Part shown: positions 1 through 59,299 of the stretch, one piece after another
Numbering within the stretch: position 1 is the stretch's first letter
Layout of the letters: every line of letters begins with the position of its first letter
NCBI GenBank assembly: GCA_036172245.1
Contig: JAYWIR010000010.1
Coordinates: 2,294,001-2,358,000 of the forward strand
DNA length: 64,000 nt
Source of the DNA: Raillietiella orientalis
Taxonomy: Eukaryota
Direction: 5' to 3'
Made by a program: the position numbers and the translations under genes
Notes under the pieces: model-generated
Seen by the model: the letters and a program-made list of their open reading frames with translations, nothing else
Told to the model about the DNA's origin: nothing
Database searches by the model: none

Positions 1-1799
1 TAGCATCTCAGCAAGCACGTCAGATTCGCGTTCCCCCGTTCTGCACTTTCCATAAGTTCCCTCGGATTCTGGAAGGGAACCAGACAAAAACCCGGAGAGT
101 TTGGTGTAGGTAATGCAAACAGAAGTTGACATGGAAATGCGTTGCACGGCAAACAGACGAGATGTTCAGAGGTGACAAAAGACAGAAAACACAGAGGCGG
201 GTTGAGCCGAGAGATAATGCCAGCCGGTGCATCCGCTCTTTCTCGCCTGCTTCGTTTGATCTTGGCAGGAGAGGCAAACAGAAACACCTCCAGCCCGTGT
301 TTGAAATCTCGACGTTCGCTCGGCAGTGTTCCCTCTCTGGAAAACCCTTCGGCAAACAGGAACTTTTTTTTTTTTTTTTTCCGTAGGTCTTTGGGGACTT
401 CGAATGTCGCATTTCCCGCGGTTGCGCAGAAGAGTTTTTTTTTTCTCAGAGTTTCGTCAAAACAACTTCAGATGTCAGCTCTTGAACTCGTGCATGGCTG
501 CGTCCGATGACCCGACACACCACGAGCAAAGAAACTTTTCTGTTTAAAAAAAATAAGCAAATAAAAATAACGCACGTCACTGCATCAACGTCCTTTTTCC
601 GGAGGATGGGTTTCTTACAGAGCATGACTGCGAAACGGAGATGGACTGCTGTGCTGTATCACAGTCACCGGACGCGTCCACCGTCGTGTCCCGATGTACC
701 CAGATCAGGAAACACTTTCGAGTCTCAGTCCCAGACAACTCGACTGAGTCGTGGGTGCATGGACCAGAGGAAGCGAAAACACCCGACCCGACATTCAGGG
801 AAGCCCAGCCTTTCTGAAGCCTTGGTTGGGAATCGACATCCTGCGTGAAACAAGAATTTAGTGGATCGCCAGCAGGTAACAGGTCACTAGCTGGATTCCT
901 TCCCATTTGGAGGCAGTCGTTCAAACTCATTGGTTGCCTTTAATTCTTTTTTGAATTTCTTTTGGTTTCCTTTCTCTCCCGAGAGCACCTTCTTAAACAC
1001 CATTCTCGCGTACCCCGTTTTCCTGTCCCGTAAGCTTTTGCTCTCTCGATGGTGGAGACCTTTCCTCTAGGAGTGACGACGTTCACGCTTCATGCTTTTG
1101 AAAGTGACAGTTTTTCCTTCACTTTCCCATTCGGAAGCAAGCGCAAGTCCTTCATGAAAGAGCGAGCCGAGCGGAGTGTGATCTGCCCGCGGTTGTGAAA
1201 AGACTGGACTCGAGTGGTCAAGATGGACGCCATCATGATCAACGTGCCCTGCGTTCGTGGCACCCCTGCAGACAACGATCGGTGTTCCGAGGAGGCTGAG
1301 CTTTGGAAACTCCCGACTTGACTTCGAAAATTCTCCTGCCTGTCCTGCGGGCTCCGTGGCCGCTCGCAGCTCTCGGGACATCTACCGGAAGCGCGTGCAT
1401 GTCAAGCCGACCGGCTGAAATGCCACGGCAACCTGAAAAACCGGGTCAAGAGTCCGATCCCCAGGACTTGCGAATCAAGCTAGCTTGCGATCCCGCGTGT
1501 GGCTGCTTTCCCATTCCTTCCCTGTAATCGAATTTATTTCACTTTCCTGGAAGAGGGATTTTATATTCTTCTCGACTTTCATTTCTTTGGGGCTCCATCT
1601 TGGACTCTTCCTTTTTTATTTCTGTGATGAATTCTGGTCCCCGTTCGCTTGATTTATCCTCCTCCTTCAGTCAGGATTAATCTAGCTTTTTCTCCTATTG
1701 GACTTTTCTTTTCCTTTCTTTTTTTTGGGGGAGGGGGAGGGGTCTCAAAGTGCCGGACTCTGTCCATGCCATCCGAGGGTGCATGTGACACTTCAAATC

Positions 1800-2232
1800 A
1801 CAGGGGGTGACCCCATAGGGACCACTCTATAAATCCAGGAAGGCTCCGGAGGAAGGAGTCCTTTCCTCTTACGTTTTGCTTCTTGACTCTGGAGAGGCAG
1901 CCCTCGAGAAGAGTATCAACCAACGTCCCTTCATGGTACGTGGTGGAAGACGGTTGCAATAGCACAAGCTGAGGGGAACGGCTTCCAGGAAGAACCCCGG
2001 AAGGTCGATTCTCGAATCTCGGCCAGTCAATAGGGGCATCCGGTGGTTTCTGGCTTGCACCGTGCCGCATCCGAAGCCTCCAAGGCCAAGCAGCATCATG
2101 CTGCGGAAGGGATTCGAAACCCACGACGCAACCCATTTCTCTGGATCTCGATCCTCCACGTAGGGGTTCGAACCCACAATGCTTGGTGCCATCACATGCG
2201 TAGACCACAGCAGCAGCACGGCTGCCAATGCG
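1800..2232 (-). mobile_element. SINE-like repeat copy A (internal hairpin cassette deleted)
   Basis: The reverse complement matches the head of copy E (TGGCACCAAGCATTGTGGGTTCGAACCCC ... GCGTCGTGGGTTTCGAATCCC), then TGCCTCTCCAGAGT, then jumps to CGGAGCCTTCCTGGATT..AGAGTGGTCCC. Confidence 0.7.
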
Positions 2233-5200
2233 GAAGAAGGACTGATTTGAAGGATGCTTTCTTTTCCAAGATAAACCACCGTAGGAGTTGCAGCTGTTTA
2301 TCAGTAAGGTGCGACCCCGCTCTCGACCGATCGAACTTCCGGATGCCGGAAAACAGAGCTCCAGAGCTGACCGGCACGCACGCCAAGCCAGAGAAAATCG
2401 GAGGCTGAGATGATTGGCACGCCGCAGCGTTTCTCTCCTGCTTCTCATCCTCTCATGCGGAGAAAAGTCCTCCAGAGACACAGCTAAACTTGCCGCCGCC
2501 TGCAGCATCCAGGAGTTACTCTCCTTCGGTGGTCTCTGATCCCAGAGATGACTCGTTCTTCCCGTGAGTCGCATCCCTATCATGATCAAGCGAGAGGGCT
2601 CTCTCTCCTTTCGCGATTCGTCCTACAAGGCCGTTCGAAACGGAAGCGGACTCAAACACCAACTTCCGACTTCTCCGGAGGCAGGGCAGCCAACTTCTTT
2701 GCGTGTGCGGAAGTTCGAGAGAGGAAAGGAGGGGGAGAGGGCACGGGCAAGGAATGAGAAATTTCAAGATGAACGCCTCCGGCTTCCTTCAGTTCCCGCT
2801 TCCCGAAGGAGCCGAAAACTTTGCCTCGTCCCTCAGGCAACGATCCCGAATTTCGCCGATTCTTCCAAGCCGGCTCTGCCAGCAGGATGACGTCCGTACA
2901 TTTTTTTTTTTTTTGTTCGTTTTGTTTTTCTCCCTCCCCTTTCCTTTGTCTTCAGGCGTTGGTCTGTGTGACGTCCGGGCTATTCGCCCGCGAGCGTTCC
3001 CTGCTGTTGGATTCCGCTCAAGCGGGAGATTTCTCTCGAAGAGATGCTTCCCGAGGGGGATGTGCGAGCCTCTCAGCATTCGTGGGAGCCCAGTACGCAG
3101 GCGCCAGCGGAAGGGCAGATGGAGGCTCGCCGAGCGACACAAATCCATCCACACAGTGGGAGGCATCCTTCGCCCGCCACACCACTTCCAGGTGCCAACC
3201 GCGGGAGGAAGGCCAGAGCGTAGTCCAGGTCGTAGCGAGATCTCCGGATGCACAGCGGAAGGAGGGTGGAAGTGCACGTGGCTCGGCTGCCCTTCTCCCC
3301 TTCCCCAGCCCCAGCTCTGCAGGAGGCGTAGCTGTAGTCCCCACGCGTTCTCCCCGGTACCAGCGTCCCCATGTGCCTCTTCTGCTCGCGCGTTTCTCAT
3401 CTGCCTCCGTTCCATTTCTTGAGCCGGAGGAGGAACCGCTTTTCCACTTCTCTTCTTCTTCCAGCTTCCTGCACCTCCTCCCCTTTCCGGAACGGAGGAA
3501 ACGCATCGTTCCTTCCTCAGAGTCCACATCCCTCCGAGCTGCGCCACAAGGGCGACCCTCTCGATTCGATCGGTATCGGATGGGGGCTTTCAGTTCCGCT
3601 CAGATCCAAGCCGAGACGAGGGGGCAGCCTATCCCATCCAAACTGCTCCGCAGCTCGTCGCGGTGCGGCAGGAATTCTCGTCGCATCTTGGGTCCTGTGG
3701 CACCGCGAGCGGCGCAGAGTGGACACGTGACTCTCCCCACCTCCCCCTTCCACATAAGATGCCGCTGTCTTCTCCATCCTTTCTGTTTCGCTGCTTCCCG
3801 GAAGGTGGCATCCTGCTTGCCCTTTGCCGCCTTTAGAGGACGGTAGATGTCTCCGGGATCGACCTCGAATTTCCCGCTTCTTACGCGTAAGGACGTTTCC
3901 GGGCCGGTGATGGGAAAGACTGGAGTAGTCGAACCGACCCATTCCACTCTTGGGAGACACTCCCTGCATCCCGAGATCCTGATCCAGGAAGCAAGCGAAT
4001 TCACTCAAGAGGAAGGGAATGGTGTCGTCCAGTGTCCGAGACGGACGGAAGCACCCACAGAAGTGTCCCGTCCGCACGAACCCACGGTGTCTACCCCCGA
4101 AAGAAGAAGACCGGTCAGCCTGCACGCCCACACCGTGCCGAAGAACACACAAGCAAGACTTGTCTCAACGGCGAAGCCGCCCTGAATCGGACCTTGCGCC
4201 GCGCCCGTCCTTACCTCGACGCTCACTCTCAGACACCCGTCGCGGAGTCCGTTCCACCCGTCCTCCGACTGCGACGACAACAGGGGGAGGGTCCCCCGTA
4301 CCCTGCCTTTGCAATTCTCTTTGCCGAGACAAGCCGAGATTTCGCGGGTGCCGCACCCTCTCAGACAAGTCCCTTCCCCTCCTCCTTTCCGTCCAGTCTG
4401 CGTTTCTTTCACAGACACACGCGTCTCCAGCATCCAACCTCTTCAGCTACTCCTGTTGATCTCTCATGTTTGAGAGGATGCACTCGCATCAACCCTGCAG
4501 GTAGATAGAAGCAAATCACGTGATCTCACGCATTATAAATTACCGGCAATTACTCATTAAGCTCAATCAGTGACTCCCTAGCAGCGGCGTTCGAGGTTCT
4601 TCTGTGGCGGTCCGTAGGGATCGTCCCTGCGTACCGGAGACGGCAGAGAGGGAATTGGATGGACGGATGATGAATGCGAGGCGAGCGGGGGATTCGCACG
4701 CGCCAGGGGCCGCGCAGCTTCCTGCGAGGCAGACGCGAGGGCTTCCACGAAAATCCACGAACGGCCCCGCAGCTCTCGAGGAGGCGCCGCCGAGATGCCT
4801 GCCGGAACGGAGGAAGGGAAGGGGGGCGGGGTAGGGTGGGACGAGGGAAGAGGAGCAAATGCCCCCCGCGCGCATCCCAGAGAGAAGCCACGCGCGCCGC
4901 AGTGTCTCCCATCCGTTGCTATGCACCATCTCCCCTCCCTCCTCCCTCACTGCCCACGGAAGGCGCCTCTGAAAATTCTCCTTCAGATGCTCCCTCCTAG
5001 AGCAACCCCTTCCGGTCTGGATTCCGCTCCCCGACTCTCGGGTGGAGAGCTCTCCTTCCCTCATGCCGGCAGCATCGCAGCGGAAACTGCTTGCCATAGA
5101 TGAGCCAAGCAGGATTCCCAGATTCGCAGCTTTCGATTCATCTTGCGTGGTCCGGTACGAAGGGAGAATTGTGTCAAGACTCCGGGTTTCCTCGAAGGAG

Positions 5201-5700: not shown

Positions 5701-6014
5701 GCCCCCCCGGAAGGAGGAGAACGAACGCAGAAGAGGACCACCATGGAGCTACCGGATGATACGCTGTTTAAGCTTCGGTTCTATCGAGAGGCTTGTTCGA
5801 GGATAAGGGAGCGAACCACGATCTCAAGGAGGAAAAATATGTCTCGCAAACTGAGGGGAAACGCTGACAGGGAAACGCCAAAAGGAAGGGGACGTCGTTT
5901 TTCAATGCGATGATTTTCACGAGAGAAAGCCTGGAGATGGCATTCGGATGATGAAAACCCTTCCGAGTTCTGCCGTTTTCTTCTCTTAACTCCCAGATTT
6001 TTTTTGTCTTCTTT

Positions 6015-6585
6015 TGGTTCGCCAAGGACTCAAGAAACATTCGCCTAGGGGATCACGAAGCTCTTTGGAGCCATGCGAGGGTGCGTGCAACTCTTCAACT
6101 TGTAGGGTTAACCCTGTGGATCCAGGAAGGTTCCCAAGGAAGGATTCCGTGTCTATTACTCTTGGGAGGGAACCCGCTTGCTGTTGCTCCTCTGAAGAGA
6201 ACCCCGAAGGAATGCTTCCCAATTTCTCTGAAGGACGCTTTCCGAAGGGAGCAGCGCGCTTCTGACACTTTGGAGAGATAAGCCCCCGAGGGGGGTATCA
6301 ACCAGCTCCATGGTACTTGACGGAGGACGGCTCCATTTGCACCCCGAAGGGTCCCTTTAATCCTGGAAGGACCCGGAGGGAGGGTCAACTCAATCTCGGT
6401 CAGTCAACGGAGGCATCCGGTAGTTTCCTGCTTCCACCGCTGTCGCACCCTAAGCCAACCGAGACCAACCAGCGTCATCCTGCGGGGGGACTCCAAAGCC
6501 ACGGCACCCATTCCTCGGGGTTTCGATCCCCCCCGTGGGGATTCGAACCCGCAACGCTCGTCACCAGCATGGCAGTGCCACACTC
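6015..6585 (-). mobile_element. SINE-like repeat copy B
   Basis: The reverse complement gives GCGTTGCGGGTTCGAATCCC (head), GATGACGCTGGTT, AGCGCGCTGCTCCCTTCGG, CCTTCGGGGTTCTCTTCAG and the 3' end CTTGGCGAACC, all shared with copy E. Confidence 0.75.
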
Positions 6586-11300: not shown

Positions 11301-11569
11301 AACTACGAATCGTATGCGCGCACGGGCGTGTGTTGCGTTTGGCGTAGGGGGATGTTCATGCGATCCTATTTGTCGTTCGGACCTAAGGATGGAAGAAGGC
11401 AATTAGCCTCTGTCGAGAAGGTAGGGGGTATGGGAGAAGATCGTGTTTTCATCACAGAATGAAGAGAGTGAGGCCTTATGCATTCTGCGTGCCGCGGTGG
11501 TCACCTCTGGAAGGCATTGTGTTTGTGAATTTGGAGATTATAGAATTAGACGTTGTTTCCTTGCTCAGG

Positions 11570-11730
11570 ATCTCCAGGTGCTCGAGAACCGTTCGCCTAG
11601 GGTCTCACGAAGCTCTTTAACGCTGCCTACGCCACCACCCGAGGATGGGTGAAACCGTTCAAGTTAGAAGGGGACCACCCGATGAATCCAGAAAGACTCC
11701 TGAGGAAGGATTCCTTCCCTCTCTTACCCG
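11570..11730 (-). mobile_element. SINE-like repeat copy C (3' fragment)
   Basis: TTCGCCTAGGGTCTCACGAAGCTCTTT matches 6040-6066. GAATCCAGAAAGACTCCTGAGGAAGGATTCC matches ~1830-1860 and ~6118-6148. Confidence 0.65.
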
Positions 11731-12200
11731 TAGCCACACCGGCAGCCAACGCGAGCCGTCTGGATACGGCCTCCAAAGTTAGGGGACTTTTTCCTCGGTA
11801 TCGGACCACGATCTTTGACACCAAAGCAAAGTGCGTGGCGAAAGCCATAGATAAACAGCGGAGCAGTAGAGGAATTGGAAGAATCGGGAAAGCGTCTTGG
11901 ATCCATGCAGAGCTGGGAGTCACGCAAGCTGGTCTGTTTTCCCCCTCCAGACTTGAAAGCAGAGAGTTCAGAGCATTCCCCTTCCATTATGGAAGATGAA
12001 TGACGAGGAAGAGAAAGAAGACATGTGCCCTCCTCAGACAACACAGTATTGATCCTCATGGAAGCTCAAAGCTGCTGCTGATCAGCAAACTTTGACATTT
12101 TCTCAGGCGCATGGGTTGCCTAAGCCTAATCCTAGGAAGCAAACTGTGAATAGCAATCAGCTCCAACGTCCCTCCATCTCCTCCCAATTAGGCTCGCTGT
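11730..12200 (+). mobile_element. Degenerate LINE RT fragment between repeat copies C and D
   Basis: ELGVTQAGLFSPSRL resembles SGVPQGSVLSPxLF, preceded by IFDT. Confidence 0.35.
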
Positions 12201-12354: not shown

Positions 12355-13335
12355 GCCATGAGTTCGCTCAACCCTGATTGACACCCCTTCGGGAGTTTTC
12401 TCTCCAGAGTATAAGAAGCGCGCTGCTTCCTTCGGGGAGCGCCCTTAGGGAAATTTGGAAGCATCCCTTCAGAAGAAATGAGAGAGTGGACCTTTCCCGG
12501 GGATACCTCCGGAGATAATAAGGAAGAGAATCCCTTCGGAGTTCGCTTCGGAGACGACCAAGACGAAGGTTCCCTTCGGGATTCCCCCACCAAGCGTAAG
12601 AGGGACAGACTCCTTGCTCCGGAGCATCCCTGGATTCGTAGCGTGGTCCCCTCTCGGAGTATTCCCTAACTGGAAGAGTTACACGCGCCTTCGGGTAGCG
12701 TAGAGTGTTGGTCCTTTGGGTGCGGGGCTCATCAGATTTCAACGTTCCGTGTTGACAGCACGCGCGTCGCAGCTGCCATCTCTTCGGAACGGAACGCTTT
12801 TTCGCGTACCGCGCGCTCTGCCGAGTTACCCACTGACTACACAAAGTGCCGATTACAGTTACTATTATAATGATTTATCTACAGCACATTAAATAAAATG
12901 TGTTCACTTTCCCCAAACATATATTGCTTATTTAAAAATTACACTTATAATTCGAATAAAATCAATAATTCATTCACATTTTTAAGGTATCACAAAGATA
13001 AAAAACAACATAATAAATTATGCACGGCACCGGAAAGACCGAGAATGCTTAGCCGATACACATAGAATTTGGTTTACTGCCGTTGCCAAGGGAGTTATAA
13101 GAAGGTAAGTGTATGCGTCCATCTCAAACACGGACAGTGTCAACTTGTGTCGCGAGTATAAGGTAAAAAAAAAAACGTTTGCCAAACGCATATAAGCGTC
13201 CATAGTCCACGCCGAAAATTTTCGCCGAACACACGTATGCGTCCACAGCGTACCCTCGGGCTCATCTACGCGTCCTTAGCACTCAAAGGGTTAAAGAAAT
13301 TCGTGAGCCTCCAGGCGAACGATCTTGAGTACTTA
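12355..13335 (+). mobile_element. SINE-like repeat copy D (3' half), interrupted by a MITE at 12712-13290
   Basis: 12355-12711 aligns with 33200-33600 (CTCTCCAGAGT.TAAG.AGCGCGCTGC; CTCCGGAGA.AATAAGGAAGAG). The remaining 3' end resumes at 13291 (TTAAAGAAATTCGTGAGCCTCCAGGCGAACGATCTTGAG). Confidence 0.7.
12712..13290. mobile_element. piggyBac-type non-autonomous element (MITE)
   Basis: Right end is GCACTCAAAGGG|TTAA; left end is TTGG|TCCTTTGGGTGC, a degenerate inverted match to TTAA|CCCTTTGAGTGC. The interior is AT-rich with subterminal (GTAT)GCGTCC repeats at ~13111, 13192, 13235 and 13266. Uninterrupted copy C has a single TTAA at the equivalent position. Confidence 0.65.
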
Positions 13336-13449
13336 GCGAACCGTCTTTCTCAGGCACTCCAAACAGAGCCATAGATGCACACTTGTTCTCTAGGAGACAT
13401 GTAAGGGACTAATTTTCTGGAATGTATTGGTCTCCGCCTGGGTCTTCAC

Positions 13450-29750: not shown

Positions 29751-32700
29751 TTATCAATCTTTTTAGTCCTTATTTTTTGCTTCCTCTTTACAGCATCCCA
29801 TACTCTCCCGTCTTATACTGGTCCTGTGCCCCAGCATTCTAAACTACCGGGAGTTTGTATTCATCCTGCTTACTTCATTATCCTTCAGAGTTGCATTTCT
29901 TCTTGTATGGGCGTCTTTCAGAAACTCCGTTGTCTTCATCCGTAAACATGGCAGGTTGCTTCTGCAACTTCGGAATTCCACGGTGAGACTCATCTTTACC
30001 TTGCCAACACCGGAAACTTGCTTTCTCGTGGGTGTTTGTCAATTTTGTCTGTCGATTTTGATTCTTCCCGATAGATGCAAGCCGGGAATGGTCGCCAAAG
30101 ATTGCTGCGCAACCTCTTCGTGATTCATCCCCACGAAGCGCTACGCAGTCTGGATCGAATACCATGATTACAGAAGGCAATACCATGATTACACTCCGCG
30201 TGGCAACACTTACGTTACTCTACTAAGAACTCTGAGAGCAAGAACTTAGGTATTCACGCAGAATGGCGATGGAGTTAATCGATAACTTGGAGCTGCCAAC
30301 TGACAGAGCATCAGTGAGATCCTTCTGTTGTTACAGATCAAGGTCTTTTATTTAGGAGCATACCAAGGGTCAGACTTCCGGATGATGATGAAGACGCAAA
30401 CATATGCCTACTGTGTCACATATCGGAGTCGTTCTCACCCCGTCTGCACCAGAAAATAAAAGTCATTAGAAACAAACGACTGTTCACGAGAAGCAAGGAT
30501 GACCGAGTCTTTAAGCAATCTCCGCCGAGGCCGAGTCGTGAGAATCGAAAGTAACCGGAGGCAGGAACTTAACAGCAAAGATTCCAATGAAAAATGGAAG
30601 GTATCCGTCATGAGAAGAAAAGGGAAGCCCTTTAACGAGAAAGCAAAAGATAGCGAATCCAATACGTCAATGGTCTTGCCGATGCTGAAAATTCCACTGC
30701 ATCGCCAGCAAGCCCAGATTCCTCCTAGCCGCCGCCCCCCTCCCCCTCACTTCCAAACAGCAAGGAACACTCGAAATATCGCAAGAGCCACATTGGTGTT
30801 GCACACACGTCAGCCGGCATGTCGCAGAGAAGCACTCCAGAAAATGCTCTGTCTGAGAGCCACCATCCCTAACGAGTTAGGCAGCGAGCAGGAAGCGTTC
30901 CCGCTGCAGGAAGCAAACCACTGAGGGACTGTTTGCGTTATCTCCAGTGGAAGTGGTGGACGCGAGACTTCCAAAGCCCGGGGAATCCGGAAAGCAGCCG
31001 GTCGAGGAGAGATCGTTCCAAACTCCACTCTTCCATCGTTTTCAAGAAATGCCGCCGAAGTCCTGGGAGACGATTCCGAATCGGAAAAGTGGGAATTCGG
31101 AGGCCGCTCGCCGAAGTCTCCGAGGTTTGCGCGACACGCGTCGCGTTGGTTGCACGGCAGCAGAGACGACGTGCGAAACCAGGAGCAAAACAAGTTGCGT
31201 GAAAAAACGCAAGGAAACTGTCCTTTGGACCGGCCGTCTCCGGGACGCTCGGTTGGTGACGCTCGAGGATCCGTTGCACGCTTCTTCTCCTCGAGAAGTG
31301 ACCTCTGGGAACGAAAATACTGAGGCGGGTGGCGACCAAAAACATGCAAGAGAATTTCGTGGAAATCCGAATGCTCCACTCCCTGCAAACTTCCTGCGCA
31401 ACCAGTCCCTCAGAAGTCCCTCGGGCTTCGAAGTCGGACCGAAATCGTTGCACCGTGAGCTTGGGAAGAAGCGGACCCTTGCAGAAAATCCAGGGGGAGA
31501 GAAATTCGTAAGCAGTTCTATGACCTGACCCTGGATGACCGTGCCGCTTTCCTTCCGTTCCGGGCAAGAAAGGGTTTCATTCGTTCTTAGGTTCGCGCGT
31601 CCCGGATCATTTTATTCGCACCGCCGGATGTAAGAAGGCAACAGAGATGTCACCCCACAAGATCAGAGTAATTAGACAGTTACAGAAAAGGATGCCAGGA
31701 AATCATTCAGGAAACGTGATGCGTTGCACTTGCTTCCATCCAAGAAGATGTCGCGATGATGAACGGGATGTTGAGCGCGAATCTGTAGCCACGTGTGAAA
31801 AACCAGTTGGGGAGTGATTGACTCTGGGCCGCCGTGTCTCGGGAAAGTTCTCCCGCGGGTGACATCGAAAACTCGGGAACGGTGACGGGAATTTTCCGCC
31901 GTCTCTTTGCCTTAGCCCACGGGGTGCATCCCTTCGGGACGCCGCACGGGGAAATGCGAAACCAAAGATAATGATTTTCTTACCATTTGGAACATCGTAA
32001 GTGGCTCTCCTCACTGAAACAGAGGGGGGAGGGGGAAAGGTCAGCTCAGGAAAAAAAATCCATTGAAGAGGCGCGCAATTAACTCAGCAACTCGCATGCG
32101 CATGAAATCTGAGGCAAGCAGAGATCAAAGTTGCTCCAGACAAACCAAATGAAAAGCGCGAAAAAGCAGCAGCAACCGGCGGCTTCTCGGGGGACAGGCG
32201 GCACCATTTCCCTGTCCCGCGAAGCAGCTCGGAAATTTGCTTCCCATGCAAGATTAGAGGGGAAGAAAACGCTGCAGCGTCCGAACAAACCCTCCCCAAA
32301 CTGCAGGTTTCCCTTCCTTGAGGAATCGCCGCGCACATCGTGACTGCTCCCTGAGAAGTACTCGAGGAGGAATAAACGAGTTTTCAGGGAGAGAGTTTCT
32401 TTCGGAGAAAGAGGGGGAGTGAGGAGAGGAATGGAGGGGGGGGGGATCCTCAGACCCTCGAAAGGAGAACGTGCCGCTTGCAAAGCCCCTGAGCATCCCA
32501 TGGAGCCGCAGTCGCATCGCGCTCCTCTCTAGAGAGTGTGCATTCGGGGGAGGGGGGCTGTCCCGGAAATTCCCGCCGTGGATGCAGCCGAAATCGCGAC
32601 TGGGGACTTCCTGCGGACGCGAAGGGGCCCCGTGCGTGCGCGCGCGTGACAGCAGTTTCGCGGTGCGAACGGAAGCAGCACCGTTCGTGGGGAAGTGATG

Positions 32701-32894
32701 GGAGAGGGAGGGGAGGGGGGGTCGGAGGACGGATGCCTAGGCAACGAGCGCGCTTCCGACCTGGCCCCATTCCGTGCCGCGCGTGGGCCACTCCGGACTC
32801 GAAAGATGAGAACCCGCGAAGCCGACTGGGAAACTTGCACGCCCTCTTCCCGTCCTTTCCAGATTTCCGGTGCTTTCCATGTTCTTCAGAACAA

Positions 32895-33672
32895 ACAGTG
32901 AGCCTGCGTGACTGCGGTCTCCGCGCGTGGCACCAGGCGTTGCGGGTTCAAATCCCGCCTGGGGAAGGCTCGACTCCGAGAACAGGGGGTGCGTCGTGGG
33001 TTTCGGGTCTCCCTCCCCCCCCCGCAAGATGACGCTGGTTGCCTATTCAAGTGCAATGGCACTGGTGGAAGTCGGAAACCCTTGGACGTCTCCGTTGATT
33101 GGCCGGGATTGGAAGTTGATCCTCCGGGGTCTTTCCAGGACATTAAGAAGTCCTTCGGAGTTTCCCTCCGGTTGTGAAAATGGGGTAGCCCATCGCGTTC
33201 CATGGAGCTCGTTGTAAGCCCCTTCGGAGGTTGCCTCTCCAGAGTGTAAGGAGCGCGCTGCTCCCTTAGGGAGAGCCCTTCAGAGAAACCGGGAAGCGTC
33301 CCTTCGGGGTTCTCTTCAGTGGAGGGAACGGCGAGGTTCCCTTGCTGCTGCCCTCTGGATAAGAAATTCCAGGAGCGGATCCTTTCCGAGTTTCCCCTGG
33401 AGAAGAAACGAGGAGTGGCCCCTTCCAGGAAATCCCTCCGGAGAGAATAAGGAAGAGGTTCCCTTCGGGGTTCCCTCCCAAGCGTAATAGGCGAGGACGT
33501 CTTTCCTTCGGAGCCTTCCCGGATTCTCGTAGAGTGGTCCCCTCTAGGGGTACCCCCTATAAATCGAAGAGTTTCACAAACCCTCGGGCGACGTGGACAG
33601 TGCTGAAGAACCTCGCGATCCCCCCCCCCCCTCCCCAGGGAGGCGGACGGTTCTTTAGCACTTGGCGAACCC
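32895..33672 (+). mobile_element. tRNA-headed SINE-like dispersed repeat, most complete copy (E)
   Basis: Head has a B-box-like GCGGGTTCAAATCCC (32942-32956). The body carries several CCTTCGG hairpins. Colinear similarity to the copies at ~1800, ~6015, ~11570 and ~12355. Confidence 0.7.
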
Positions 33673-35399
33673 CTCACCCCTCTCCCCAAAAAAAATCCGG
33701 AAAAAAAATTCTGCAAGGAAAGAAGAGAAACAGGAACCCTTAAAAAGGGTTTCCATTACCATTTTATTTTTTGTATTTTCTTCCTGTTGTTCCAAAGGAA
33801 CGCAGGCAAAAAAAGGTCACAGGCGATTGCAATCTTGCAGAACGCTACAAGATTATCTGCGTGGCGGAAAGTGGCCTGGATGGAAATTCATTTTCTGCAC
33901 AGGTCTACTTGATTCACGCCTCGTGCAAGAGTTACCGACAAAGGCGCGAACAGGTGGGGAGAAGATGAAAGCAACTGCTGAAGGCAAGAGGAGCATCTCA
34001 AAGAGTCGAGAATTTCCTGCGCAGGGTAGCATCGGAATTGTGAAGTTCACTGGACCGTTCGCCGGACCTTCTCAGGGATTGGCAACTGCCCAAACCCTCA
34101 GAAGGAAAATCACACAGAGGAAGAACACATCGGCGCGCCTACCGCCGACTGTTGCATGGCAACGTGCAACACGCTCAAGATAAGTTTCCCTGTTAGGAAT
34201 GGCATTCCATTTTATTTATGGCATCTGAGATATTTGAAGGGTTCGAGGAAGACCGGAAGACCGATCGATTTTCTCTTTCTCTCGTTCTGTCTTTCGTTTG
34301 ACATTGCCTCCAAGGCAACGAAGAGCTGCTGCATCACACCCATCAGTTCCTGGTCTACCGAGCGCACCGACTATGACGACTTCCGAGGAGAAAGCGCAGC
34401 ATCCTCTGCCACATGGACACGAGAGCGAGGAGGGAACTCGCTTGCTGGAGGCGGCGAGCAAACCGCAACCGCCTCCATCTGCACCCTGCCGCAGCCCGAA
34501 GGAGAGACGCCTTCGGCCTGCGGCACCCCGAAGGTGTCTCCCTTCTCCCACCCCAGAGGGTGAGCTTCTCCGACTCAGCGTCGCTCCTCTCCCGACCACC
34601 TCGTGCCTCGTGAGCGCAGCCCTGGCTCCATCCGTTCCTCGGAGGGCTGGGGACGAACCTTCCCTTCCCAACCTTCCCTCCATCCCTTCCCGCCTCGTCA
34701 CCGAGTTTGTAGGGAAGTTCCCCGAGGAAACGCGATTTACTCCGTCTCCCCACATTTCCTCCCAAGCCTTTCCTCCGGTTCGAATACCTCGCGAAAGCGC
34801 AGGACACCGGAAGTCCTTCCGGAGAGATTCCGCACCCCGAAACGACACTTGTGGAGACAGGAATCGATGATCTCAAGGGTTCCCAATCTGCCTCGATATG
34901 CATCCCTTCCTTCCCCCTTCGTACCTTCGGAGGCTATCAGCAGCCGAGCTCGATATCTCCCTGGACCACGGGAGGCGAGTCCAGCCGTGGAGCTACTCGC
35001 GGGAAGGGAAGGGGCAAAGTTTTCGCAGGAAGAACCGCAGCGTCCATGAGGACGTTCCCGCTCCGCGAACGAAGGGGCGAGCGGGAACCTGCCCCTTGGT
35101 GAAGAGCGGTGGCTCGGGTGCCCCGCGGCGCCGTCACCTCCCTTCCTCCGTCGGCAGCCCTTGCAGCGCACCCGTCCCACGTCCAGGGTCAGTACGGTCC
35201 TCGAGGAGAGAGCAGGGTCGCCATGCTCCGGTTTCTTTGAGGTTGATGGTGAGCGCGTTCGAATTGGAGGTTCCGCAAGAGCGGCAGAAGGAGACTCGAC
35301 CGCTGCAGCCCTCGTGGTCAGGCTGCTCACCCCACACACACCCAAGGACTCGGAAGCACCTCGGAACTCGATTGCTTACGGCATATCGAGACCCCTTGA

Positions 35400-56691: not shown

Positions 56692-59277
56692 TTAAGACAT
56701 AAACTGGAAATAATCCATGCAAGATTTATCCATTCGAACCTTCTTAGCAATACTTTCATCTGCATTATGATAGTGTAACTTCTTATTGATGCACAGCTTC
56801 ATGGAATTCTGAAAAAGCACTTTATTGATGTTCTTCAGCATGGTGCTGGGACTAGTACAGAAATTATAACAAAGCCTGACATTGACTTCTGGTGAGTGCT
56901 TGAGAGGGCTAACAAAAATATCACAGTTGGAAGAGACTCTCTTGGCTGGTGAAAAACACTTCACTGATCTTACCATTAATGGTGAAAGGGATATTTTCGA
57001 TTTTGAGTTTGGCATAAATTTGATTAACATAGATTTTGCACAAAGTAAAAACACTTGATTATAAAAAGCCACAATATCACCTCTGTCAACACAACGTGAT
57101 CCATTTGAAACAGATGTATTATGTGCAACAGATGATGTGGAAAAAGGTCCATTTTCCTTGTCTGTATCTACCTTGTCTACTACATTCTCATTATGATGCA
57201 GCAACACACAACGGTAAATATGAGTCTTACTATGAGGTTGATTTTTGTAACAGACCAGAATATCATGAAACTTGTGTTCATTGTTTGTTGCTCTGCAAAT
57301 ACTATACAAGCAGCACAACAGTATTTGATCCAGGTGGCGTTCCTTAAACAACTCAATATGCTCCATGATACACCATTCAAAAAGTGTCCAAATTTTCTGG
57401 TGTAATTCGTTAGATATTTTTAACTCCCTGCAAAGGTTCTCTAAGCGAATAGATGCCAACTGATATACTTTGCGGAAAAACATCTTCAAAGAGCATACCT
57501 TTCTAGGCTTGGTCAGCTTCTCAGAAGTGGCAGTATGGTCACCAGTAGCATGTACCAGATCTACATTATCATTATTTGGAACTGTAGGTTCATTAATAAT
57601 GGAATTTCTTCTGTTCGTTTTTCGCTTTAGTAACAAAACATCTGATGCTGCAAGTTCACTACAGTTGAGCTTCTGAGAGGTACAGAGATCTCTAATACAA
57701 AATTCTTTCAGCAATGGTACACAGCTCTGCATAGGGCAAGCAGATCTGTCACATGCATGTAAGAATGTGGGAGTTTTCTTAGACTCATGATACTGTCTAC
57801 CACAATTTTCTGAATTTAACAGTGTAGGCAGAAAAGCATCTCTGCAGGATGGTATTCCTTCCTTATGCCTCTTGAGAGTTAACCAAAAACCAGAATGGTT
57901 TTCAAAACAAAGACTATCCAAGCATTGTTCCTCAATAGTATTTAAATGTTTCACAATTTCTTGAGTTAAATTTAAAGATTGGATTCGGATCATAATTTCA
58001 ATTATGCGAAAAAATACAAATGCATCCAGTTGCAGCACTTTCAATATCCATGGAAATGTATGCCTTGAATTACAAAAGAATAGAATCATCTCCACACAAC
58101 ATGCAAAGAGAGCATGCACAAAATCCATGTTCTCCAGTAGCCACACAAGGTTGATTTTATCAGAGCGTTGCATTTCATCTTCAATCAACAATTCCAAACA
58201 CTGATAGAACAATAGGTTTGCAGTGTCCAACCTCTGTTGCATGAGCTGATGCTCATCACTGGTTGCATTACTAAACCCCTCTTTAAACTTCTCACCTAAT
58301 TGGTCAATTTGCTCTTTCAGAGTTACTTTCAGATCTACTCCACTGTTTTTCAATAAGTATTGTACTTGATTGTTGCATCTTCTGTTTTTTCCAGTAATCA
58401 TGCATATCAAACTTTCAGTTGCCTGAACAATTGGAGAAATGGGCATTGGATAAGATCCCTTTTCTTTGACATCATCATGTTCCACCACAGAATATGGAAA
58501 CACATGAGCTCTCATTTTAAGCTGAGCATCCCAGTCACAAAAAGTCATATTGACTTTTCCAATTCTACTTGGAGTATGCAATATTGGGTAGAGAGTGTGT
58601 CCATGTACAGTTCCCACCTGTTGATTCTTCTGACTTTCCAGCAGCACTCGCTCATCATAATTACCATTTAGTAACAAGTAACATTCATATATTTGATTCA
58701 CATTCTGCCTATTGACTGCAAACCAATCTGCATCAAACAAGCTACTGTGAGTGTTCTCACAGCCATGGAGAATCTTCTTAGCAAACAGATCATGAATGAA
58801 AGGATTCCAGTTATGTTCTTTGAAGCTCTTTGTTTCTGCCACGATTTGAGAGTCATTGGTGAAGAACTCAATAATGCATGGCGGTACACTGGGAGGTACA
58901 GATTTATCAGTACACAAATCTTTAGAAACTGCTGGAAATTCCGGATTTAATAACTTGGACAGATTTGCGAGAACAGCATTACTATACATCAAGTCCACAC
59001 AAACATACATTAACTTCATGGATAAGGAAACATCACCAACAAAGGGAATCAATTTGCTTTTTGCCATGCAATACAGTGTCCAGCAAAATTCCCGTATATC
59101 CTGGATAGTACAAATATTCCTCCCTGACACACCTGATGAGGACATTGGATCTTCAGATGAAGAACTGAACACTTTTGGAAAGATTTGAGAAAACTTTTCA
59201 AACACAAACTTTGACATTTCAATAGGTCTTTCCAATTCCTTGGTTTTTTGGCTGTAGCCTTGTAAAGCACATGACAT
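56692..59277 (-). CDS. Retinoblastoma-family pocket protein (p107/p130, RBL1/RBL2-like), single coding exon, 861 aa
   Basis: Uninterrupted 861-aa ORF. The N-terminal domain is colinear with p107 (FCWTLY, LLNPEF, PPCII, KEH, YDERVLL). Pocket A motifs: LFACCVEMIL, TFPWIL, IIEIMIR, VKHLNTIEEQCLDSL. Pocket B motifs: SLKMFFRKVYQLASIRLENLC, KIWTLFE, RHLDQILLCCLYSICR, YKNQP, GDIVAFYNQVF. The C-terminus is S/T-P rich with a basic tail. Confidence 0.95.
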   Translation of the reverse strand: MSCALQGYSQKTKELERPIEMSKFVFEKFSQIFPKVFSSSSEDPMSSSGVSGRNICTIQDIREFCWTLYCMAKSKLIPFVGDVSLSMKLMYVCVDLMYSNAVLANLSKLLNPEFPAVSKDLCTDKSVPPSVPPCIIEFFTNDSQIVAETKSFKEHNWNPFIHDLFAKKILHGCENTHSSLFDADWFAVNRQNVNQIYECYLLLNGNYDERVLLESQKNQQVGTVHGHTLYPILHTPSRIGKVNMTFCDWDAQLKMRAHVFPYSVVEHDDVKEKGSYPMPISPIVQATESLICMITGKNRRCNNQVQYLLKNSGVDLKVTLKEQIDQLGEKFKEGFSNATSDEHQLMQQRLDTANLLFYQCLELLIEDEMQRSDKINLVWLLENMDFVHALFACCVEMILFFCNSRHTFPWILKVLQLDAFVFFRIIEIMIRIQSLNLTQEIVKHLNTIEEQCLDSLCFENHSGFWLTLKRHKEGIPSCRDAFLPTLLNSENCGRQYHESKKTPTFLHACDRSACPMQSCVPLLKEFCIRDLCTSQKLNCSELAASDVLLLKRKTNRRNSIINEPTVPNNDNVDLVHATGDHTATSEKLTKPRKVCSLKMFFRKVYQLASIRLENLCRELKISNELHQKIWTLFEWCIMEHIELFKERHLDQILLCCLYSICRATNNEHKFHDILVCYKNQPHSKTHIYRCVLLHHNENVVDKVDTDKENGPFSTSSVAHNTSVSNGSRCVDRGDIVAFYNQVFLLCAKSMLIKFMPNSKSKISLSPLMVRSVKCFSPAKRVSSNCDIFVSPLKHSPEVNVRLCYNFCTSPSTMLKNINKVLFQNSMKLCINKKLHYHNADESIAKKVRMDKSCMDYFQFMS

Positions 59278-59299
59278 AGTAGCTTAACTTTTTCGTCTC

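What the first reader, a model, noticed from the sequence alone, without database searches (positions are those of the whole stretch)
32895..33672. Long tRNA-headed repeat family carrying an array of C(UUCG)G tetraloop hairpins
Seen: five related copies in 34 kb (1800-2232 minus, 6015-6585 minus, 11570-11730 minus, 12355-13335 plus, 32895-33672 plus). On the same strand as the B-box-like head, the body repeats CCTTCGG in short stems, at ~33152, 33221, 33301, 33462 and 33505. Copy D has GCTTCC-TTCG-GGGAGC at 12425-12440 and about five more. Established: cUUCGg is an extra-stable RNA tetraloop, and typical SINEs are shorter and lack such arrays. Inference: a Pol III-transcribed, highly structured non-coding retroelement or ncRNA-derived family that may be undescribed. 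It could conceal a ribozyme or a protein-binding scaffold.
Basis: partly seen in the sequence, partly recalled or inferred. Interest (0 to 1): 0.7.

Follow-up and report, generated by a model that had tools for sequence, protein, structure and literature searches.

The report
Hairpin-repeat SINE targeted by a LINE
This is an old, unusually long jumping-DNA repeat whose many small hairpins come from one repeated unit and are no longer maintained; the more notable fact is that a second, younger jumping gene has landed again and again at one exact spot inside it.

Summary
The repeat is real and is an ~850-bp SINE (window copy 32895-33764), roughly 6,000 copies by a rough extrapolation. It has a tRNA-Arg(CCT)-like head (50/76 columns identical), a body of degenerate ~40-nt tandem units, an internal A-tract and a (CAT)n end. 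No long TSDs were found. CTTCGG is about 15-fold enriched and strand-specific. Copies show no covariation (56 compensatory cells vs 58±6 shuffled), and stems decay like flanks. Only 2 of 5 flagged motifs keep a stem of 3 bp or more. Arms do covary modestly between units of the consensus (13/20 vs 7.9, p=0.011). No Rfam or ribozyme match. Genome searches show an L1-group (Tx1-like) LINE inserted antisense at one nucleotide of this SINE, at the site equivalent to 33066/33067. 40 of 48 independent loci found with LINE-only queries sit there, with variable 5' truncation and short duplications. Exact 16-mers count 77 filled and 210 empty sites. The scan noted both the SINE and this targeting before, on other DNA, from 2-4 cases. 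I found no SINE-targeting LINE in the papers searched.

The parts
32895..33764 (+). Full-length SINE copy (copy E), ~84% identical to the family consensus
   Evidence: nhmmer model positions 17-856, E 5.6e-234; blastn 83.9% over 775 columns
32895..32965 (+). tRNA-related head, closest to the genome's own tRNA-Arg(CCT); A-box-like 32901-32911, B box 32945-32955
   Evidence: best of 54 distinct own-genome tRNAs, z 6.9 against shuffles; consensus 50 identities in 76 columns; box coordinates read from the sequence
32991..33013 (+). Second, degenerate copy of the T-arm/B-box stretch (internal duplication)
   Evidence: read directly from the consensus and the window copy; not tested statistically
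33058..33066 (+). Target site of the L1-group LINE (GGCACTGGT; insertion point 33066/33067). Empty in this copy, where the upstream TTCGGGT motif has decayed
   Evidence: junctions; window letters; no LINE 3' end anywhere in the window
33117..33600 (+). Body: about ten degenerate 36-42-nt tandem units, each with a central YYCG-type palindrome; five CCTTCGG remain in this copy
   Evidence: autocorrelation peaks at 40, 79 and 122; deletion peaks at 12 nt (26 events) and 36-42 nt (12 events); stems
33688..33708 (+). Internal A-rich tract (not the tail)
   Evidence: about 50 conserved nt follow it in an alignment of 35 3' ends
33709..33764 (+). Conserved 3' module ending in TTTCCAT plus short CAT-type repeats
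   Evidence: no long TSD in 19 full-length copies
1727..2235 (-). Copy A, with an internal deletion of model positions ~364-593
5943..6585 (-). Copy B, with an internal deletion of model positions ~446-581
   Evidence: hits 6564-6177 and 6175-5943; 5' extent
11554..11756 (-). Copy C: first ~30 nt of the head fused to model position ~597 onward
12375..12708 (+). Copy D, headless body, first part
12708..13294 (.). Unrelated insertion at the SINE's TTAA, with worn terminal inverted repeats; piggyBac-like MITE (label recalled from TTAA/CCC ends)
   Evidence: ends compared; one related copy in L172 (70% over ~507 bp)
13295..13345 (+). Copy D, continuation after the insertion
   Evidence: read by eye against the consensus; below the HMM cut-off

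Best explanation
An old tRNA-Arg-derived SINE. A master copy was transcribed by Pol III from its internal A/B boxes (inferred) and copied into some thousands of sites by a LINE's target-primed reverse transcription (inferred; partner not found). Its body grew by slippage duplication of a ~40-nt unit that itself holds a 12-nt direct repeat, and the junction of that repeat makes the CCC-TTCG-GGG hairpin (shown for the consensus). After insertion the copies decayed without regard to pairing (shown). Later, a younger L1-group (Tx1-like) LINE subfamily adopted one site of this SINE as its landing pad (shown by the junctions). Its endonuclease most likely nicks the SINE sense strand after GGCACTGGT, and the RNA's last bases (ACCAG) anneal to the freed end to prime reverse transcription. 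A second nick a few to ~20 nt upstream then leaves the duplication (steps inferred from junction anatomy and the general TPRT model).
For: Dispersal: 6212 candidates, 40 scored, 47 matches. Six insertions in 20 evenly spaced 10-kb stretches. Flanks are unrelated between loci apart from LINE fragments. Head: 50/76 columns to tRNA-Arg(CCT); the B box ranks 12th of 765 windows for retention. Fixed 3' end with short CAT repeats; tail-only and headless copies exist. No coding constraint: 2-7 stops in each of six frames; deletions by length mod 3 are 97/191/85 for 0/1/2. Neutral decay: stems 18.0%, loops 16.4%, rest 16.0% substituted; compensatory cells 56 vs 58±6 over nine hairpins in 191 de-duplicated hits. 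LINE: two LINE-only queries (30 of 40 scored hits fetched each) give 49 independent groups. 41 have the SINE at the canonical site on at least one side and 24 on both (40 of 48 without the query's own locus). Insert lengths run 383-2135 bp, and duplications are 3-20 nt (median 8.5) in the 18 of 24 measured. Heads next to LINEs differ from each other as much as intact heads do (71.5% vs 69.6% pairwise), so these are independent targets. The LINE 3' part is ~10% from its own consensus against ~18% for the SINE. A 2.6-kb copy that includes the RT region sits at the same site. Its relative L114 matches human L1 ORF2p best in the PDB.
Against: No partner LINE shares the SINE tail, and no TSD signal was seen (mean score 3.2 vs control 2.6), so retroposition of the SINE is inferred from its anatomy. 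The tRNA match is weak on the A-box side and the head does not fold as a cloverleaf; ARAGORN finds nothing in the window. Between-unit covariation (13/20 vs 7.9, p=0.011) argues against the hairpins being pure by-products. Eight of 49 LINE groups were not scored at the site (one, L183, is at it by eye and), and related subfamilies (L024, L114) sit elsewhere, so specificity is a subfamily trait. No full-length copy with its endonuclease was recovered. The LINE hit sets are the nearest relatives of one SINE-inserted copy, and their 10% divergence is biased low.
Confidence: 0.8

Rival explanations
1. The master RNA's chain of hairpins was selected while the SINE was active, as a modular binding or stabilising scaffold (for example for the partner LINE's proteins); the copies later lost it.
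For: At stem positions 4 and 5 of ten paralogous units, 13 of 20 pairs are standard against 7.9 when arms are permuted (p=0.011). Position 5 alone has 8 of 10, with five pair types. Sense folds somewhat better than antisense (z -2.5 vs -1.4). The family is star-like (no linked sites among 1128 pairs beyond chance level), so the copy-level test cannot see selection on the master.
Against: I chose and centred the ten units by eye, which favours palindromes. Several units have T-T mismatches or weak stems (-3.4 to -7.7 kcal/mol). The first CTTCGG forms no hairpin. Quasi-palindrome correction during replication (recalled mechanism) gives the same pattern without selection.
Confidence: 0.3
2. The copies are functional structured ncRNAs or carry a self-cleaving ribozyme.
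For: Motif enrichment and strand asymmetry. A SINE ribozyme precedent exists (B2; PMC13172522, search listing only).
Against: No Rfam match over the element in the window or in 16 of the best copies. No copy-level covariation, and stems are not conserved. Each CTTCGG site is intact in only 26-51% of copies.
Confidence: 0.05
3. The body is a relic of a protein-coding repeat read on the minus strand (a 289-codon stop-free frame covers the window copy), or the element is a solo LTR, MITE or Helitron.
For: Open frame 32886-33755 on the minus strand.
Against: The consensus has stops in all six frames, and deletions ignore frame. Flanks share no internal region. No constant TG...CA ends, terminal inverted repeats or short-TSD signal.
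Confidence: 0.05
4. The SINE-LINE junctions are one composite element that multiplied as a unit, not repeated targeting.
For: The 3' junction is nearly identical everywhere, and some duplicates exist (9 of 49 groups have several members).
Against: The 5' truncation point differs from locus to locus, the SINE body resumes with a duplication, and the heads are as diverse as intact heads.
Confidence: 0.03

Closest known systems
tRNA-related SINEs with a body of unknown origin (SINEBase, PMC3531059; Definitions section and passages read), in particular the quasi-oligomeric CHRS family
   Same: Head-body-tail layout; tRNA-related head; a degenerate motif tandemly repeated about ten times (CHRS: ~20 nt, more than 10 times); simple-repeat end.
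   Different: About 845 nt without tail, against a maximum of 662 in SINEBase. The unit is ~40 nt and palindromic. It has an internal A-tract. No sequence comparison with SINEBase or Dfam consensuses was possible.
Tx1-clade LINEs that target other transposons: Tx1L in piggyBac-type Tx1D; crocodilian Tx1-Mar in Mariner-N4_AMi, Tx1-8_Crp and Tx1-4_AMi in LTR elements, Tx1-9_AMi in Harbinger elements (PMC4494074; abstract, passages and section 15 read; figure and supplements not seen)
   Same: L1-group RT; C-terminal CCHC motif; one preferred site in a dispersed mobile element; well above that paper's threshold for target specificity (more than 20% of flanks).
   Different: The target here is a SINE, a class not named among the targets in the passages read. 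Membership of the Tx1 clade itself was not tested by phylogeny.
B2 SINE ribozyme (PMC13172522, search listing only)
   Same: A tRNA-type SINE RNA with secondary structure.
   Different: Nothing here shows cleavage, expression or a conserved fold.

Membership tests
SINE (SINEBase definition) | Short (<1 kb), interspersed, non-tandem repeat | tested here: met
   ~850 bp, dispersed on many contigs; exceeds the paper's looser '<700 bp' wording
SINE (SINEBase definition) | [quoted passage not shown] | tested here: met
   210 exact matches of one 16-mer, reversed control 0; 191 distinct hits in fetched loci
SINE (SINEBase definition) | At least 60% identity to a tRNA over at least 60 nt | tested here: met
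   50 of 76 columns (66%) to the own-genome tRNA-Arg(CCT); own tRNAs were used, not SINEBase's human set
SINE (SINEBase definition) | Pol III transcription from an internal promoter | not testable with these tools
   A-box-like and B-box motifs and no TTTT on the sense consensus are indications only
SINE (SINEBase definition) | Tail of simple repeats | tested here: met
   short, variable CAT-type repeats at a fixed 3' end, 35 ends aligned
SINE (SINEBase definition) | Dependence on a partner LINE (shared 3' end or insertion signature) | tested here: inconclusive
   no shared tail with the two L1-group families seen (mean z 1.0 and 1.2) or in ~1 Mb of fetched loci; no long TSD
Known ribozymes and structured RNAs (Rfam 15) | Covariance-model match | tested here: not met
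   no hit near the gathering score over the element
Conserved structured RNA | Compensatory changes among homologues | tested here: not met
   among copies 56 vs 58±6; the separate between-unit test is weakly positive
Target-specific Tx1-type LINE | One repeat type in more than 20% of flanks (criterion of PMC4494074) | tested here: met
   40 of 48 independent loci
Target-specific Tx1-type LINE | L1-group reverse transcriptase | tested here: met
   RT region of the inserted copies is 55-68% identical to L114 ORF2; L114 has RVT_1 and best PDB matches human L1 ORF2p (E ~2e-17), ahead of R2 (E ~1e-11)
Target-specific Tx1-type LINE | Apurinic-like endonuclease | tested here: inconclusive
   all recovered SINE-inserted copies are 5'-truncated; relative L114 shows GDFN and SDH motifs by eye but no Pfam hit
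Target-specific Tx1-type LINE | Placement in the Tx1 clade by RT phylogeny | not tested
   no named Tx1 reference was returned

The most novel reading that the evidence does not exclude
A LINE that homes to one nucleotide of a SINE, with hundreds of insertions, is a target class not yet described. Its endonuclease reads a stretch that includes the SINE's first TTCGG motif, which is better kept in filled than in intact copies (91% vs 80%, p=0.004, 18 vs 34 copies). The SINE's hairpin array was a selected modular scaffold of the master RNA. That would make a three-tier system: an unknown LINE drives a structured SINE, and the SINE serves as the dispersed safe harbour of a second LINE.
Probability: 0.25. 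Interest if true: 0.65.

Novelty: new variant of a known kind. Interest (0 to 1): 0.45.

Why it matters
The hairpin array alone is a curiosity of repeat architecture. The targeting matters more. Site-specific LINEs are a source of programmable integrases, and their known targets are RNA genes, microsatellites, telomeres and DNA or LTR transposons (PMC4494074, PMC8869645, PMC4640811, passages). Here thousands of diverged target copies exist, some filled and some empty. That is a natural saturation mutagenesis, from which an endonuclease's sequence preference can be read straight from a genome. The antisense insertion about 100 nt behind a Pol III head also raises a testable question: whether SINE transcription opens the site or silences the LINE.

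Tried and rejected
Sequencing runs: none was listed for window 32400-34400, which is no evidence on expression. Rfam on the window and on 16 copies: nothing over the element. ARAGORN: no tRNA in the window. TSD search in 19 full-length copies: not above mismatched controls. Partner LINE: an exact tail pattern with three CAT units had 0 matches; a tail HMM over all fetched loci found 45 hits with SINE upstream and 9 without, none attached to a LINE 3' end; Pfam PF14529 gave only 4 weak matches; a resemblance between the tail and the tandem LINE family's 3' UTR was not significant. Subfamilies: no linkage. Coding relic: rejected. CpG decay as the reason hairpins are lost: rejected, since CpG and non-CpG transitions are equal (11.6% vs 11.7%). 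Relatives in other organisms: none in phages, none for one 23-mer in metagenomes, and only distant RTs. Full-length LINE: two long copies were extended, reaching ~2.6 kb; other candidates were not fetched. A scaled count of SINE copies from the exact 16-mer was too noisy (1 of 38 intact copies exact). The same scaling for filled sites (8 of 37 exact, 77 in the genome) suggests some hundreds. Literature searches for a SINE-targeting LINE and for UUCG arrays in SINEs found none. The library lacks most subscription papers and Repbase, and supplements of PMC4494074 were not seen; they may list such a target.

Full report
Observation. Self-comparison and a profile built from 23 copies confirm five related copies in the window. 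The five CCTTCGG motifs and the copy-D hairpin are at the stated places. CTTCGG occurs 15 times in 2,563 bp of family sequence, always on the head strand, against 0.38 per kb per strand elsewhere in the window. Shuffles do not reproduce it. The stems are weaker than stated: 1, 1, 3, 3 and 1 contiguous pairs at the flagged motifs. The flagged copy extends to ~33764. Copy D is split by an unrelated TTAA-flanked insertion.

Setting. The window is G000:C10:2294001-2358000 in a 210-Mb genome. A retinoblastoma-family ORF with ~30% identity to arthropod proteins and standard animal-type tRNAs point to an animal; I did not go further.

Anatomy of the family. A DNA search gave 6212 candidates, of which 40 were scored, the main matches 69-76% identical to the window copy. 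Twenty 10-kb stretches that I picked at even coordinates on large contigs held 7 hits making six insertions. That extrapolates roughly to 6,000 copies. From 206 hits, 191 after removing duplicates, the 76 longer ones are on average 17.7% from the consensus. The set comes from similarity searches and leans to well-kept copies. The family is star-like. The head matches the genome's tRNA-Arg(CCT) best of 54 distinct tRNAs (50 of 76 columns), and the T-arm stretch is duplicated just downstream (read). The body is periodic at ~40 nt. Each unit carries a 12-nt direct repeat whose junction makes the central palindrome, and deletions peak at 12 and 36-42 nt. The A-rich tract is internal: about 50 conserved bases follow, ending in TTTCCAT plus short CAT repeats (35 ends). 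So the element is not poly(A)-tailed, as some earlier scan notes had it. No long TSDs were detectable in 19 full-length copies. All three SINEBase criteria are met (for the text), and the length exceeds the 662-nt maximum of its 175 families.

Do the hairpins matter? In the copies, no. Over nine consensus hairpins there are 56 compensatory cells against 58±6 after shuffling, and stems are substituted at 18% against 16% elsewhere. The consensus array folds with z -2.5, its antisense with -1.4. Rfam finds nothing over the element. One result points the other way. Between the ten paralogous units of the consensus, stem positions 4 and 5 pair in 13 of 20 cases against 7.9 expected (p=0.011), with several pair types. 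I picked and centred these units by eye, so the test is lenient. Because the family is star-like, this is the only test here that sees the master's history. It leaves about a 30% chance that the master RNA's hairpins were selected.

A LINE that homes to the SINE. Three of the first 30 loci, and one evenly picked stretch, were split at the same point by an antisense LINE fragment with a CCHC motif. A junction query returned many more with different 5' truncations. To avoid that query's bias I searched with LINE-only stretches (30 of 40 scored hits fetched each). After grouping duplicates, 41 of 49 groups have the SINE at the canonical site on at least one side, and 24 on both. Without the query's own locus it is 40 of 48. 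The eight not scored there are L156, L168, L183, L190, L193, L205, L207 and L210. L183 is at the site by eye and; three others keep the terminal TCAACCAG in unrelated flanks, which suggests that these bases belong to the LINE RNA and pair with the target. Duplications measured in 18 of the 24 are 3-20 nt (automatic, rough). Heads beside LINEs are as diverse as intact heads, so the insertions are independent. Exact 16-mers count 210 empty-type and 77 junction-type sites, reversed controls 0; some filled loci also keep the empty-type word. The TTCGGGT motif just upstream of the duplication is better kept in filled heads (91% vs 80%, p=0.004), although those heads are otherwise more diverged (75% vs 79%) (18 vs 34 copies). 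The same motif occurs five more times in the SINE without being used, so it is not sufficient. A 2.6-kb copy carries the RT region. Its relative L114 matches human L1 ORF2p best, but L114 and L024 sit at other sites, so the preference belongs to one subfamily. The site in the window copy (33058-33066) is empty.

Mechanism. Shown: dispersal, head homology, tandem body, neutral decay, and repeated insertion at one site with truncation and duplication. Inferred: Pol III transcription, TPRT by an unidentified partner, an apurinic-like endonuclease nick after GGCACTGGT, and priming helped by 5-nt microhomology.

Comparison and novelty. Tx1-clade LINEs that target other transposons are known (PMC4494074: abstract, passages and section 15 read; PMC8869645, PMC4640811 and PMC3747384: passages; PMC13269885: passages, nothing on this). 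SINEs are not named among the targets in what I read, and five searches found no such case. Repbase and most subscription papers were out of reach. The scan had noted this SINE family, and the targeting from 2-4 cases per window, on other DNA of this genome. Verdict: observation confirmed, the structured-RNA reading mostly not supported; a long quasi-oligomeric SINE that is the landing pad of a site-specific LINE. New variant of a known kind, interest 0.45.

Noticed in passing
window 56692-59283 (-): Single open frame of 863 codons with RB_A, RB_B and DUF3452 domains, an apparently intronless retinoblastoma-family gene, only ~30% identical to its best database relatives.
   Followed up: partly
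window 12708-13294: AT-rich insertion at the SINE's TTAA with worn inverted ends, piggyBac-like by recalled features; one relative in L172.
   Followed up: partly
L111-L114, L118, L121, L123, L124; many rows: A second, young L1-group LINE family with long intact frames forms head-to-tail arrays at ~5.5-kb spacing on small contigs and ends in a constant stem-loop plus GGGGAAAA.
   Followed up: partly
L117 5163-8678: A truncated copy of that second LINE family lies antisense inside the SINE at model position ~631-654 with a ~19-nt duplication; a single case.
   Followed up: partly
L119 2800-10000: Two LINEs with R2/NeSL-like frames in tandem, followed by sequence that looks like 28S rDNA (recalled, not tested).
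   Followed up: no
all SINE copies: No CpG hypermutability (transitions 11.6% at CpG vs 11.7% at other C/G), which suggests these repeats were not CpG-methylated in the germ line.
   Followed up: partly
L061-L080: GC content of 10-kb stretches ranges from 34% to 66% across the genome; the window itself swings from 37% to 66%.
   Followed up: no
L006 3340-3444 (-): A U6 snRNA gene about 1 kb from a SINE copy.
   Followed up: no
window copies A, B, C: Three of five window copies have internal deletions that end at model positions ~581-599, a possible deletion hot spot at the end of the tandem array.
   Followed up: no
P0029: A metagenome-derived protein 58% identical to the RT half of the L114 LINE, so a related lineage exists in environmental data; its locus was not recovered.
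   Followed up: partly
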